The position numbers and the translations under genes were made by a program. Shown here one piece after another: positions 56,928-59,262 of a DNA stretch of 64,000 nt (position 1 is the stretch's first letter; every line of letters begins with the position of its first letter). The DNA is from the human T2T-CHM13v2.0 reference genome, Homo sapiens. The stretch is taken from assembly GCF_009914755.1 (NCBI RefSeq), contig NC_060926.1; one strand, written 5' to 3'. The notes below the pieces were generated by a model, which saw nothing but the letters and a program-made list of their open reading frames with translations, was not told the origin of the DNA and searched no databases.

Positions 56928-58153
56928 TCAACACTTATTGACTGCCTGGGGGTTCCTGGTGCTGTAATGCACCTCAGAGGCAGCGACGTAAGCTGACTCT
57001 GGGAAGAAGTCATCGTGGTATTCTGCTAAAAACCTCACAAAGAGATCAAAGTGCTTCAATAAAGCCTTCAGATTCTTCTCAGTAAAGGACATTTTTCCAA
57101 GAATTTCTGGAAGTTTGACAAACAATCGCAGCAAATGTTGCGCCCCGTAAATGTAAGAGGGTGGAGGTGGCTGGTCACCTGGTGGGTAATTGTCAGGTAC
57201 GAGCTTCCAGGAGAGGACCTCATTTATTTCATTAGTTCTTCTCCCTTCAAAGCCAGCAAACACAGGACTCCCTTCCTGGCTAGGAGTCAGAGTAGGTGAA
57301 GATGATCTGCTATGCACAGGTGTCTTCTTTTCCAGGTGCAGGAACAGCTTGGGCACACTGGTGGACATGTCCTGCTGCCAGCGCTTGGGCTGAGGTGAGG
57401 TGCTGCTCTTAGAAAGCCTGTCACAGTTGGCGGTGTGGGGCGAGGACCGCCTCAGAGACTGCACTGCTTGCGGCTCGGCTTTGCGCCTTTTAGGGGTGGC
57501 TGGTTCACCGCTGGTCGACTGACTCTCTGTAGACTGCGGCCTGGATGGATTCAACAAACGTAAGCTGGGAGAGAGCTTCTCCTGGCTCCTATTAGTATTT
57601 GTGGCACTTTCCTTAATTGCAAGAAAAACCTTAGATGCAGTCACCTTTTTATACTGAGCTTGTTCATAGGGATAGAGTAAAACCAACGGGAGAGTGTAAT
57701 CAAAGGTTATTCTTAATCCATCCACCATCTCCTTACAAAGGTCAATATTCTTTTCTGCTGGGATATAAGGCACGTTCATGCTGGCATGTGGCATAGCGTG
57801 ATGGTGACGAGGCCTCTCATTGGCTGAAAAGGCTGCACTGATAGCAAAATGCTTCACATAGGATTCCAAAATCGTTATGATGTTGGTGTGGCATGGAAGT
57901 TGCACTAACCGTTTCCTCCGATTAATGTAGTAACAATCATCCTCCAGCTGCCTCTTCAGAACTTCAGGGATTTCTAGAGTTACTGTTCTTTCTTCCATTT
58001 CCCTTTTTGTTTGAAGCTCCGGTTCTTCTTTCACTTCAGTCTTTTCTTCAATATCACATTCTTCACTTATTTTTTCATCCTTGTCTTCACTACTGTCGGA
58101 GGAACTGCTTAATGAGTTTTCATCATTTTCATTTTTTTCTTCGATGGAGAGGC
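56928..58153 (-). CDS. MSL3P1: MSL3 retrocopy predicted coding exon 2: acidic linker plus MRG domain
   Basis: Open for 1226 nt from the acceptor tgtctttttttaaaag ([19 protein letters not shown]...) to the stop after ...NPQAVNKC; includes ORF 56928-58034. Confidence 0.65.
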
Positions 58154-58270
58154 CTTTTAAAAAAAGACAGAGTCAGCACCAAGCAACCTGGAGCGGCTGC
58201 TTCTTTCTCTCTTGCTCCTCAGGTGAGCTACAGCATTTCTTGCCAATTTATGCTGTAATCTACGAATTTC

Positions 58271-58582
58271 TTTCTTTCTTTCTTTCTTTTTTTTGTGACA
58301 AGAGTTTCGGTATTGTTGCCCAGGATGGAGTGCGGTGGCGCGGTCTCAGCACACTGCAACCTCCGCCTCCCGGGTTCAAGTGATTCTCCTGCCTCAGCCT
58401 CCAGAGTAGCTGGGATTATAGGCGCCCACCACCATGTCCTGCTAATTGTTTTGTATTTTTAGCAGAGACGGGGTTTCACCATGTTGGCCAGGCGGGTCTC
58501 AAACTCCTGACCTCAAGTGATCCGCCCACCTCGGCCTCCTAAAGTGCTGGGATTACAGGAGTGAGCCACCGCGCCCAGACCC
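58271..58582 (-). mobile_element. AluS inserted in the MSL3 retrocopy
   Basis: Full Alu with a (TTTC)n/T tail, flanked by taatctacga(a/t)ttt. Confidence 0.92.
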
Positions 58583-58592
58583 TAATCTACGA

Positions 58593-58891
58593 TTTTTTTT
58601 TTTTTTTTTTTTTGGAGACAGAGTCTCACCCTGCCGCCCAGGCTAGAGTGCAATGGCGATCTCGGCTCACTGCAACCTCCGCCTCCCGGGTTGAAACGAT
58701 TCTCCTGCCTCAGCCTCACAAATAGCTGGGATTACAGGCGCCCGCCACCACGCCCAACCACTTTTTGTATTTTTAGTAGAGACAGAGTTTCGCCATGTTG
58801 GCCAGGCTGGTCTCAAACTCCTGACCTCGTGATCCACCCGCCTCCGCCTCCCAAAATGCTGGGAAACAGGCGTGAGGCACCGCACCTGGCC
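58593..58891 (-). mobile_element. Second AluS in tandem at the same target site
   Basis: Full Alu with poly(T), flanked by aatctacgatttt. Confidence 0.92.
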
Positions 58892-59039
58892 AATCTACGA
58901 TTTTCACTAGGCTCACGAAGCACATGATCTTCGGCTACCCATCTATCCCAGCTTCAGTTCCAACCGTTACAACGGATCAGCTATTCTGGGATCTTTCTGC
59001 CTTTTTCGCCTTTCCCAACAATAACATTAACAATCTAGG

Positions 59040-59262
59040 TCGGACGGCGTCCGACGGGAGCGTCCCACGGGAGCCTACGCGGCACCAGGCTGCACGGCAG
59101 GGGAGATTTAACGCGAAGAGAGAAACCCACCGTAGTTAAAAGGCCTCCTCCGTCGGCGGCTTGCGTCCGCGTCCCGGGCGCACACGTAGCGCCGGCTACG
59201 CGACAGGGCGCGCGCGACGCTGCCGACGGCGCATGCGCGGTCCGGCATGCCGGGCGGAAGCC
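59040..59262 (-). promoter_or_regulatory. Small CpG island at the 5' end of the MSL3 retrocopy, with NRF1, GC-box and ETS-like motifs
   Basis: Dense CpG in otherwise AT-rich DNA; GCGCATGCGC at 59229-59238; GGGCGG at 59252-59257; CGGAAG at 59255-59260. Confidence 0.7.
59131..59248 (-). CDS. MSL3P1: MSL3 retrocopy predicted coding exon 1 (MPDRACAVGSVARALSRSRRYVCARDADASRRRRRPFNYG)
   Basis: ATG at 59248-59246 (context ggcATGc); donor TACG|gtgggt; 118 nt; its phase matches exon 2, giving 447 aa. Confidence 0.55.

What the first reader, a model, noticed from the sequence alone, without database searches (positions are those of the whole stretch)
56928..59248. MSL3 retrocopy apparently rescued by a new intron: a 447-aa chromodomain-less MRG protein
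Seen in sequence: the MSL3-derived chromo-barrel segment is disrupted. It has TAG at 58983-58981, TGA at 58956-58954, two Alus, and an expanded T-run at 58159-58165 that shifts the frame. All of these lesions fall inside 58154-59130 (977 nt). That interval starts with a donor (TACG|GTGGGT) and ends with a branch point CTGAC (A at -20), a pyrimidine tract TCTGTCTTTTTTT and AAAAG. Splicing 59248-59131 to 58153-56928 gives 1344 nt = 447 aa with no stop: a new Arg-rich N-terminus (MPDRACAVGSVARALSRSRRYVCARDADASRRRRRPFNY) fused to the acidic linker and a complete MRG domain. The T-run that breaks the old frame also forms the polypyrimidine tract. Established knowledge: the MSL3 MRG domain binds MSL1 in the KAT8/MOF H4K16ac complex, and the chromo-barrel reads methyl-lysine. 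Inference: exonic sequence became an intron, producing an MSL3 paralog that could join the complex but not read histone marks. I recall a putative MSL3-like-2 protein of this length being catalogued, so the product may be known. The mechanism and function are the open points.
Basis: partly seen in the sequence, partly recalled or inferred. Interest (0 to 1): 0.8.

Follow-up and report, generated by a model that had tools for sequence, protein, structure and literature searches.

The report
MSL3B retrogene with an exon-derived intron
This is the already annotated human gene MSL3B, a processed copy of X-linked MSL3 in which the dead reader-domain sequence has become an intron, and it most likely makes a 356-residue protein rather than the proposed 447-residue one.

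Summary
The predicted intron, 58154-59130, is exactly the RefSeq MSL3B intron. The 447-aa ORF is UniProt P0C860, so gene, intron and protein are already catalogued.

What comparison with the parent adds:
- The copy came from an MSL3 transcript with an alternative first exon, here called 1b. That transcript lacked a start codon for the chromo-barrel frame, so the remnant was untranslatable from birth.
- The intron arose by intronisation. Specific to the chr2 copy are a 4-nt insertion that made the GTGGGT donor, a 5-T insertion that made the pyrimidine tract, and a change from TGGAC to CTGAC. The AG was already in the parental coding sequence.
- The 5' end kept a CpG island, which has decayed in two dead sister copies.
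- Monkey gene models suggest the junction is older than the TGA and the Alus. "Rescue" therefore has the order wrong for those lesions.

The 447-aa form is unsupported. The RefSeq start site lies downstream of its ATG, 0 of 9 published peptides map to its first 91 residues, and Cebus has Leu at that Met. The likely product is the 356-aa MRG-only protein. This is a new example of known mechanisms, of modest interest.

The parts
56243..59260 (-). Whole processed copy of an MSL3 mRNA (alternative exon 1b plus exons 2-13), interrupted by two Alus
   Evidence: blastn against chrX MSL3 gives 13 colinear exon blocks, C23:11341107-11358302. Four-way alignment.
59035..59260 (-). Segment derived from parental alternative first exon 1b. 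It is a retained CpG island and the presumed promoter region.
   Evidence: 39 CpG in 226 nt, o/e 1.36, GC 0.71. Parent: 25 CpG in 216 nt. Dead copies: chr7 has 10, chr8 has 6. GC falls to 0.26-0.29 just upstream of 59260.
59229..59238 (.). Palindrome GCGCATGCGC, an NRF1-type motif (the motif name is recalled, not tested)
   Evidence: The only site in the 64-kb window. It is palindromic, so it is reported on both strands; 0.01 matches expected from shuffles. It aligns with GCGCACGCGC in the parent and is decayed in chr7 and chr8.
59246..59248 (-). ATG of the 447-aa ORF. It is specific to this copy and lies upstream of the annotated start site.
   Evidence: The parent has CAGG here. Cebus has Leu.
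59131..59190 (-). RefSeq exon 1 (non-coding in RefSeq)
   Evidence: Hub annotation NM_001425333.1. The sequence was read.
59125..59130 (-). Splice donor GTGGGT, created by a 4-nt insertion
   Evidence: Parent, chr7 and chr8 lack the 4 nt (the parent reads ACGGTTTCT).
58154..59130 (-). 977-nt intron made of former exonic sequence plus two Alus
   Evidence: The borders equal the RefSeq intron.
58894..59034 (-). Chromo-barrel remnant, with TAG at 58983-58981 and TGA at 58956-58954
   Evidence: PF22732 at 42.4 bits. PDB 3ob9/3oa6 at E about 1e-20.
58586..58897 (-). Alu 1, sense orientation, pure A tail
   Evidence: Alu-like matches all over the genome.
58311..58582 (-). Alu 2, sense orientation, (GAAA)n tail. 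It shares its target-site duplication with Alu 1.
   Evidence: three copies of TCGTAGATT flank the two Alus.
58172..58176 (-). Branch-point-like CTGAC (A at -20)
   Evidence: The parent has TGGAC.
58159..58165 (-). T7 run: a 5-T insertion that shifts the old frame and forms the pyrimidine tract
   Evidence: Absent from parent, chr7 and chr8.
57999..58153 (-). Acidic-linker-derived start of exon 2. It is 5'UTR in RefSeq and coding only in the 447-aa reading.
   Evidence: No indel or stop here in the chr2 copy.
56928..57998 (-). 356-aa ORF (RefSeq CDS): MRG domain with its internal loop
   Evidence: PF05712 at 176.5 bits. PDB 2y0n at E 1e-117. All nine published peptides lie here.
55465..56927 (-). 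3'UTR. 56243-56927 is inherited from MSL3; the rest runs into flanking DNA.
   Evidence: homology ends at 56243, at an A-run. Hub annotation for the transcript end.

Best explanation
MSL3B is a simian-age retrogene of X-linked MSL3.

Shown by sequence comparison:
- It was copied from an MSL3 transcript that starts at an alternative first exon (1b) inside the parental CpG island.
- That transcript had no start codon for the chromo-barrel frame, so the only usable long ORF was the one starting at the Met equivalent to MSL3 M167.
- The copy brought about 200 nt of parental CpG island with it and has kept it CpG-rich.
- A 4-nt insertion, a 5-T insertion and a branch-point change turned 342 nt of former exon into an intron. 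That intron later grew to 977 nt by two Alu insertions.

Inferred:
- The inherited CpG island is the promoter, because the annotated start site sits 70 nt inside it.
- Splicing shortens the leader from 1192 nt with 12 upstream ATGs to 215 nt with 5. That allows translation of a 356-aa MRG-only protein.
- The protein binds MSL1 in the KAT8/MOF MSL complex without reading histone marks.
- It mainly acts in spermatocytes, where the X-linked parent is silenced.
For: Origin:
- The copy is colinear with 13 parental exons. The exon 1b to exon 2 junction is shared by all 3 human retrocopies.
- The reconstructed canonical MSL3 is 521 aa and the exon-1b form is 509 aa.
- The exon-1b ATG of human MSL3 is ATC in 3 of 3 retrocopies and is preceded by an in-frame TAA. 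A Rhinopithecus MSL3 model starts with Ile there.

Splice signals:
- The donor insertion, the T5 insertion and CTGAC are found only in the chr2 copy. The AG|G is present in the parent.
- The same borders are annotated in RefSeq (hub table).
- Gibbon and Cebus gene models use the same junction.

Promoter:
- CpG counts are 39 (chr2), 25 (parent), 10 (chr7) and 6 (chr8).
- The GCGCATGCGC palindrome is conserved in position with the parent.
- About 3% of expressed retrocopies are reported to inherit a parental promoter (PMC4772013, passages).

Coding:
- On the chr2 branch, M167-to-stop has 32 non-synonymous and 25 synonymous changes, omega 0.37, binomial p 2.3e-4. The values for chr7, chr8 and the parent are 0.68, 0.51 and 0.21.
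- Per non-synonymous site, change is 0.123 in the intronised part against 0.039 in the retained ORF (Fisher p 4e-5). chr7 shows no such contrast (p 0.37).
- In the ORF, chr2 has one in-frame 3-nt deletion and one 2-nt deletion at the last codons. chr7 has an 11-nt and a 1-nt deletion, an in-frame 3-nt deletion and an Alu. chr8 has 8 indels, none a multiple of three.
- Published data (supplement): 9 discriminating peptides, all downstream of the MEERT Met; a 356-aa Ribo-seq ORF; dN/dS 0.603 with p 6.8e-4 over 29 sequences.

Leader: lengths and upstream ATG counts are.

Complex:
- The MRG domain scores 176.5 bits. The alignment to the MSL3 chain of 2y0n shows few substitutions.
- MSL3P1 is listed among CORUM MSL-complex members whose capture was competed by a KAT inhibitor (bioRxiv 10.1101/2025.04.25.650653, one passage).

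Testis:
- Expression is reported highest in diplotene spermatocytes (bioRxiv 10.1101/608877, passages).
- GTEx expression is reported mainly in testis and brain (PMC7835786, passages).
Against: - I saw no transcript data. The start site and the junction rest on RefSeq and on gene models of other primates, which are predictions.
- The spliced leader still has 5 upstream ATGs.
- Constraint is weak. The omega of chr2 does not differ significantly from that of the dead chr7 copy (Fisher p 0.13). Pairwise Ka/Ks against the parent is 0.33, against 0.47 and 0.43 for the dead copies. Published dN/dS is only 0.60.
- The audit preprint notes that almost all peptides come from cancer cell experiments and that translation might be aberrant (PMC11601488, passages).
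- The linker upstream of the MEERT Met is free of stops and indels in human, and in the gibbon, Cebus and Aotus models. An N-terminally longer form would also explain that.
- UniProt lists 447 aa.
- MSL1 binding and the meiotic role were not tested here.
Confidence: 0.7

Rival explanations
1. Transcripts start upstream of 59248, and the spliced mRNA is translated from that ATG into a 447-aa protein. It has a new Arg-rich N-terminus fused to the acidic linker and the MRG domain.
For: - The ORF is open across the junction.
- It equals UniProt P0C860.
- A gibbon model of 462 aa uses the same ATG and the same junction.
- The linker region has no stop or indel in human, nor in the gibbon, Cebus and Aotus models.
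- In any transcript that contains it, this would be the first AUG.
Against: - The RefSeq start site is at 59190, 58 nt downstream of the ATG.
- The ATG lies only 12 nt inside the CpG-rich copy, next to AT-rich flank.
- 0 of 9 peptides fall in residues 1-91, although six tryptic peptides of 6-30 residues are possible there.
- The listed Ribo-seq ORF is 356 aa.
- Cebus has Leu for the Met, and the Chlorocebus model starts at MEERT.
- Over the 39 residues, human and gibbon differ at 4 positions plus one indel (read off). That is no better conserved than neutral expectation.
- An open frame here is not unlikely by chance. My estimate is about 0.1: one in three for phase, about 0.5 for no stop in 39 GC-rich codons, and about 0.7 for the linker.
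Confidence: 0.15
2. The locus acts mainly as a transcribed pseudogene or long non-coding RNA. The peptides reflect aberrant translation in cancer cells and have no organismal protein function.
For: - Until recently it was annotated as a pseudogene.
- Papers treat MSL3P1 as a lncRNA or cancer marker (listings; a reference to Shao et al. 2024 cited).
- The audit preprint says nearly all peptides come from cancer cell experiments.
- Constraint is weak (published 0.60).
Against: - The 356-codon ORF is intact, while the equally old chr7 copy is broken (divergence from the parent 0.102 against 0.099).
- The MRG C-terminal half is almost invariant in five primate models.
- The binomial test gives p 2.3e-4 and published dN/dS is significant.
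- The final audit paper and GENCODE v49 call it coding.
Confidence: 0.12
3. The protein is made, but it acts as a competitor rather than a substitute. It occupies MSL1 without a chromo-barrel and so detaches KAT8 activity from mark-guided targeting.
For: It keeps the MRG domain and lacks the reader domain. This is inference only.
Against: The parent itself appears to encode MRG-only forms in many vertebrates: models of about 354-372 aa are named MSL3. An MRG-only product may therefore be a normal part of MSL3 biology. There are no functional data either way.
Confidence: 0.2

Closest known systems
MSL3 (X-linked parent), especially its exon-1b and MRG-only isoforms
   Same: Same MRG domain. The alignment to the MSL3 chain of 2y0n shows few substitutions over about 200 aligned residues. 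Same acidic linker and same 3'UTR. The 356-aa ORF starts at the Met equivalent to M167, from which the parental exon-1b mRNA also has a 355-codon ORF.
   Different: - Autosomal.
- One intron instead of twelve, at a position where the parent has none.
- The chromo-barrel is broken and spliced out.
- The C-terminus is changed by a 2-nt deletion.
Intronised human retrogenes (Kang et al. 2012, PMC3565874; Szczesniak et al. 2011, PMC3002245)
   Same: An internal stretch of retroposed exonic sequence is used as a GT-AG intron.
   Different: MSL3B is not among the nine genes of Kang's Table 1. Here the individual mutations that made donor, tract and branch point can be read off against the parent and two sister copies. 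The intron lies in the 5' leader of the favoured ORF.
Retrocopies that inherited a parental promoter (Carelli et al. 2016, PMC4772013, class A, about 3% of expressed retrocopies)
   Same: Parental sequence lies upstream of the retrocopy's annotated start site, and it is a CpG island.
   Different: Promoter activity of 59035-59260 was not tested. Only 70 nt of parental sequence lies upstream of the annotated start.
X-to-autosome retrogenes expressed in male meiosis (for example PGK2, recalled)
   Same: X-linked parent, autosomal intron-poor copy, reported spermatocyte expression.
   Different: It copies only part of the parental protein. Constraint is weak. No test of compensation exists.
Dead MSL3 retrocopies on chr7 (140485106-140487676) and chr8 (100464627-100466869)
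   Same: Same exon-1b template. The chr7 copy has the same age class.
   Different: They have stops, frameshifts and CpG decay. They lack the donor insertion and the T-run.

Membership tests
Processed retrocopy of MSL3 | Colinear with the spliced parental mRNA, with parental introns absent | tested here: met
   13 exon blocks are joined without introns. Exon junctions were read in the alignment.
Processed retrocopy of MSL3 | Poly(A) remnant at the 3' end of the homology | tested here: met
   Homology ends at 56243, at an A-run that follows an inherited AATAAA.
Processed retrocopy of MSL3 | Target-site duplication flanking the copy | tested here: not met
   No repeat of 8 nt or more was found between 70 nt upstream and 90 nt downstream. 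Decay at this age is expected.
MRG domain proteins (Pfam PF05712) | Match above the curated cut-off over the whole domain | tested here: met
   176.5 bits against 22.8, profile positions 16-189 of 190.
Chromo-barrel methyl-lysine readers (MSL3_chromo-like PF22732) | Intact domain present in the product | tested here: not met
   Only profile positions 25-71 of 78 remain. They carry two stops, lie in the intron and have no start codon.
Intron gained by intronisation | The intron sequence is homologous to parental exonic sequence | tested here: met
   The intron aligns to parental exons 1b (part), 2, 3 and 4 (part).
Intron gained by intronisation | Splice signals are absent or weaker in the parent | tested here: met
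   The 4-nt donor insertion, the T5 insertion and CTGAC are specific to the chr2 copy.
Intron gained by intronisation | Splicing shown by transcripts | not testable with these tools
   Rests on RefSeq NM_001425333.1 (hub table) and on the same junction in gibbon and Cebus models.
Retrocopy with an inherited parental promoter | Parental sequence lies upstream of the retrocopy start site | tested here: met
   Homology starts at 59260. The annotated start site is 59190.
Retrocopy with an inherited parental promoter | That sequence drives transcription | not testable with these tools
   Indirect only: the CpG island is kept in chr2 and lost in chr7 and chr8.
Out-of-X meiotic retrogene | X-linked parent and autosomal copy | tested here: met
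   The parent is on C23 and the copy on C2.
Out-of-X meiotic retrogene | Expression in spermatocytes while the parent is silent | not tested
   Reported in bioRxiv 10.1101/608877 (passages). Parental silence was not examined.
MSL complex subunit | Binds MSL1 through the MRG domain | not tested
   High similarity to the MSL3 chain of 2y0n. Listed with KAT8 and MSL1-3 in a chemoproteomic study. No complex prediction was run.

The most novel reading that the evidence does not exclude
MSL3B was born as an MRG-only gene, because exon-1b transcripts of ancestral MSL3 had no start codon for the reader domain. Selection then kept a chromodomain-less MSL3 with its own carried-along CpG promoter for male meiosis, when the X is silent. 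The intron formed early from the useless reader-domain sequence, before the stops and Alus.

Fast-evolving MRG-only proteins of about 347-372 aa, named MSL3 or MSL3-like, are listed for rabbit, gundi, pocket gopher, kangaroo rat and others. This hints that the same solution arose repeatedly in mammals.
Probability: 0.3. Interest if true: 0.5.

Novelty: new member of a known kind. Interest (0 to 1): 0.3.

Why it matters
Gene, intron and protein are already in RefSeq, GENCODE v49 and UniProt, and peptide and dN/dS evidence is in print. The finding therefore uncovers no new gene.

What it offers is a clean, datable example of three rare events in one locus:
- an intron made from exon sequence, where the three causal mutations are visible;
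- a promoter carried along inside a retrocopy;
- an X-to-autosome copy that keeps only one domain.

It also corrects the expected product. Work on MSL3B in cancer or spermatogenesis should use the 356-aa form unless transcript 5' ends show otherwise.

Tried and rejected
- Pairwise Ka/Ks against the parent does not separate the live copy from the dead ones (0.33 against 0.47 and 0.43). I therefore polarised changes with the two sister copies. Even then chr2 against chr7 gives only p 0.13.
- I considered that the chr2 and chr7 copies descend from one another. The four-point sums are 0.299, 0.301 and 0.312, with the (chr2, chr7) grouping the worst. I treat them as independent copies of about the same age.
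- A search for a target-site duplication of the retrocopy found nothing.
- The omega of 3.1 in the intronised part (23 non-synonymous to 2 synonymous changes) is probably inflated by a scrambled basic patch that may hide indels. I use it only as evidence of lost constraint.
- No primate DNA is reachable with these tools. The timing of the splice-signal mutations therefore rests on protein models only.
- I did not run a complex prediction with MSL1. The pair is a textbook one with a solved structure, and a pass would not have changed my odds.
- Literature: searches for MSL3P1/MSL3L2/MSL3B, intronization plus retrogenes, MSL3 plus retrogene plus meiotic sex chromosome inactivation, and MSL3 isoforms lacking the chromodomain (0 papers) found no description of this intron's origin. 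Supplements of Kang 2012 and of the 2025 intron-gain paper were not opened and could list it.
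Full report
**1. Observation.**
On the minus strand I read the ATG at 59248, the donor TACG|GTGGGT (exon ends at 59131) and the CTGAC at 58176-58172. I also read seven T at 58165-58159, the acceptor AAAAG|G (exon starts at 58153), the TAG at 58983-58981, the TGA at 58956-58954, and two sense Alus. Joining 118 nt to 1226 nt gives 1344 nt, which is 447 codons plus a stop. The intron borders are those of RefSeq NM_001425333.1 in the hub table. That transcript starts at 59190, downstream of the ATG, and its CDS is the 356-aa ORF at 56928-57998.

**2. What is already in print.**
- The supplement of the PeptideAtlas audit (PMC12679747, passages of file 1) prints UniProt P0C860, 447 aa.
- It lists nine discriminating peptides, all downstream of the MEERT Met.
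- It lists a Ribo-seq ORF named ..._356aa.
- It gives a dN/dS of 0.603 (p 6.8e-4, 29 sequences, Old World monkeys).
- The preprint version (PMC11601488, passages) says the peptides suggest a downstream ATG that bypasses the tudor-knot region. It also says the gene is a primate duplication under coding selection, and that nearly all peptides come from cancer cell experiments.
- GENCODE v49 names it MSL3B and calls it coding.
- A chemoproteomic preprint lists MSL3P1 with KAT8 and MSL1-3 as CORUM MSL-complex members whose capture was competed (one passage).

**3. The parent and the template.**
- The window's genome is held. MSL3 lies at C23:11340813-11358302.
- From the exon blocks I rebuilt the canonical 521-aa protein.
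- The copy does not contain canonical exon 1. Its 5' end (59260-59035) matches an alternative first exon, which I call 1b, at C23:11341107-11341322. This exon lies about 200 nt downstream of canonical exon 1, in the same CpG island, and is spliced to exon 2.
- Two further retrocopies, on chr7 and chr8, carry the same 1b-exon 2 junction.
- In human MSL3 the 1b transcript has an ATG that gives a 509-aa protein. That codon is ATC in all three retrocopies and is directly preceded by an in-frame TAA. A Rhinopithecus MSL3 model of 509 residues begins with Ile at this place.
- The template therefore most likely had no start codon for the chromo-barrel frame. The first in-frame ATG was the one equivalent to M167.
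- The chromo-barrel remnant already lacked the first 34 residues and was non-coding from birth.

**4. How the intron arose.**
In the four-way alignment the chr2 copy alone has:
- a 4-nt insertion that turns parental ACGGTTTCT into ACG|GTGGGTTTCT;
- five extra T in front of AAAAG|G;
- CTGAC where the parent has TGGAC.

The AG|G is ordinary parental coding sequence (Lys-Gly). Without the Alus the intron would be 342 nt.

Gene models of gibbon (462 aa) and Cebus (492 aa) join the same two residues...Y|GLSI.... An Aotus model reads GWNRSWDR and ENRRL without interruption. It therefore lacks the TGA and the Alus. If these predictions hold, the junction is older than the platyrrhine split and those lesions came later. 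This is intronisation of a leader, not repair of a broken ORF.

Kang et al. 2012 list nine intronised human retrogenes, and MSL3B is not among them (Table 1). The 2025 intron-gain paper does not mention MSL3 in its main text.

**5. Promoter.**
- The 1b-derived segment has 39 CpG in 226 nt (o/e 1.36). The parent has 25 in 216 nt. The chr7 copy has 10 and the chr8 copy has 6.
- GC drops from 0.71 to 0.26-0.29 just upstream of 59260.
- A palindrome GCGCATGCGC at 59229-59238 is the only such site in the window, against 0.01 expected. It aligns with GCGCACGCGC in the parent and has decayed in both dead copies. I recall this as the NRF1 consensus; I did not test that.
- The annotated start site is 39 nt downstream of the palindrome.
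- The simplest reading is that this copy has stayed unmethylated in the germ line. The reason would be that it carried a working piece of the parental CpG-island promoter. Carelli et al. 2016 put this class at about 3% of expressed retrocopies (passages).

**6. Coding evidence within this genome.**
- JC-corrected distances over mRNA positions 60-2340 are: parent-chr2 0.102, parent-chr7 0.099, chr2-chr7 0.140, parent-chr8 0.172.
- By hand, these give branches of about 0.03 (parent), 0.07 (chr2) and 0.07 (chr7).
- Branch-wise parsimony counts for M167-to-stop are:

| Branch | Non-synonymous : synonymous | omega |
|---|---|---|
| chr2 | 32 : 25 | 0.37 (binomial p 2.3e-4) |
| chr7 | 45 : 19 | 0.68 (p 0.11) |
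| chr8 | 86 : 49 | 0.51 |
| parent | 8 : 11 | 0.21 |

- chr2 against chr7 is not significant (p 0.13).
- Within chr2, non-synonymous change per site is 0.123 in the intronised part and 0.039 in the ORF (p 4e-5). chr7 shows no such contrast.
- The chr2 ORF has only an in-frame 3-nt deletion and a 2-nt deletion at the last codons. chr7 has three disrupting events and chr8 has eight indels and six stops.
- Five primate models keep the MRG core almost invariant.
- Constraint is real but weak, in line with the published 0.60.

**7. Which protein.**
Against the 447-aa form:
- the annotated start site excludes its ATG;
- 0 of 9 peptides fall in residues 1-91, although six tryptic peptides of suitable size exist there;
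- the listed Ribo-seq ORF is 356 aa;
- the Met is Leu in Cebus;
- human and gibbon differ at 4 of 39 residues plus an indel in that stretch.

For it:
- the UniProt entry;
- the gibbon model;
- an undamaged linker.

I put it at about 0.15. In the favoured reading, splicing cuts the leader from 1192 nt with 12 upstream ATGs to 215 nt with 5.

**8. Function.**
- The ORF matches Pfam MRG at 176.5 bits and the MSL3 chain of 2y0n at E 1e-117. I recall that structure as the MSL3-MSL1 complex.
- The protein should therefore dock on MSL1 but cannot read methyl-lysine.
- A preprint reports the highest expression in diplotene spermatocytes. A review reports GTEx expression mainly in testis and brain.
- With an X-linked parent, this fits the known out-of-X pattern. 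That step is inference.

**9. Verdict.**
The locus is a further example of known mechanisms in an already annotated gene.

Noticed in passing
58270-58900: The two Alus sit in tandem at one target site. The motif TCGTAGATT occurs three times: before Alu 1, between the Alus, and after Alu 2. The second insertion therefore reused the duplication of the first. Alu 1 has a pure A21 tail and Alu 2 has a (GAAA)n tail.
   Followed up: partly
L036 (chr7:140485106-140487676) and L037 (chr8:100464627-100466869): These are two further human MSL3 retrocopies, and both derive from the alternative exon 1b. None of the three copies stems from the canonical first exon. This suggests exon 1b is the main germ-line start of MSL3.
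   Followed up: partly
L020/L023 (chr5:35127445-35128087): A fourth, 5'-truncated fragment matches only the MSL3 3'UTR (87-94% identity to the chr2 copy).
   Followed up: no
L034 1107-1322 (chrX MSL3 exon 1b): Human MSL3 has an ATG in exon 1b (giving a 509-aa form). The codon is ATC in all three retrocopies and Ile in a Rhinopithecus model. The start codon of that parental isoform looks like a recent gain.
   Followed up: partly
one search hit list: Several mammals have divergent MRG-only proteins of about 347-372 aa, 70-78% identical to the query, named MSL3 or MSL3-like. Examples are rabbit, gundi, pocket gopher, kangaroo rat, slow loris, colugo and a fruit bat. A jerboa 'MSL3 like 2' of 435 aa also appears. 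These may be independent retrogenes of the same kind.
   Followed up: no
55465-56262: The inherited AATAAA and the A-run at about 56243-56262 are not the annotated transcript end. The RefSeq mRNA runs about 780 nt further into flanking DNA.
   Followed up: no
56928-56945: A 2-nt deletion relative to the parent changes the last residues. Human ends ...NKC, while the gibbon and green monkey models read on for about 16-20 more residues. This matches the published note on the great-ape C-terminus.
   Followed up: partly
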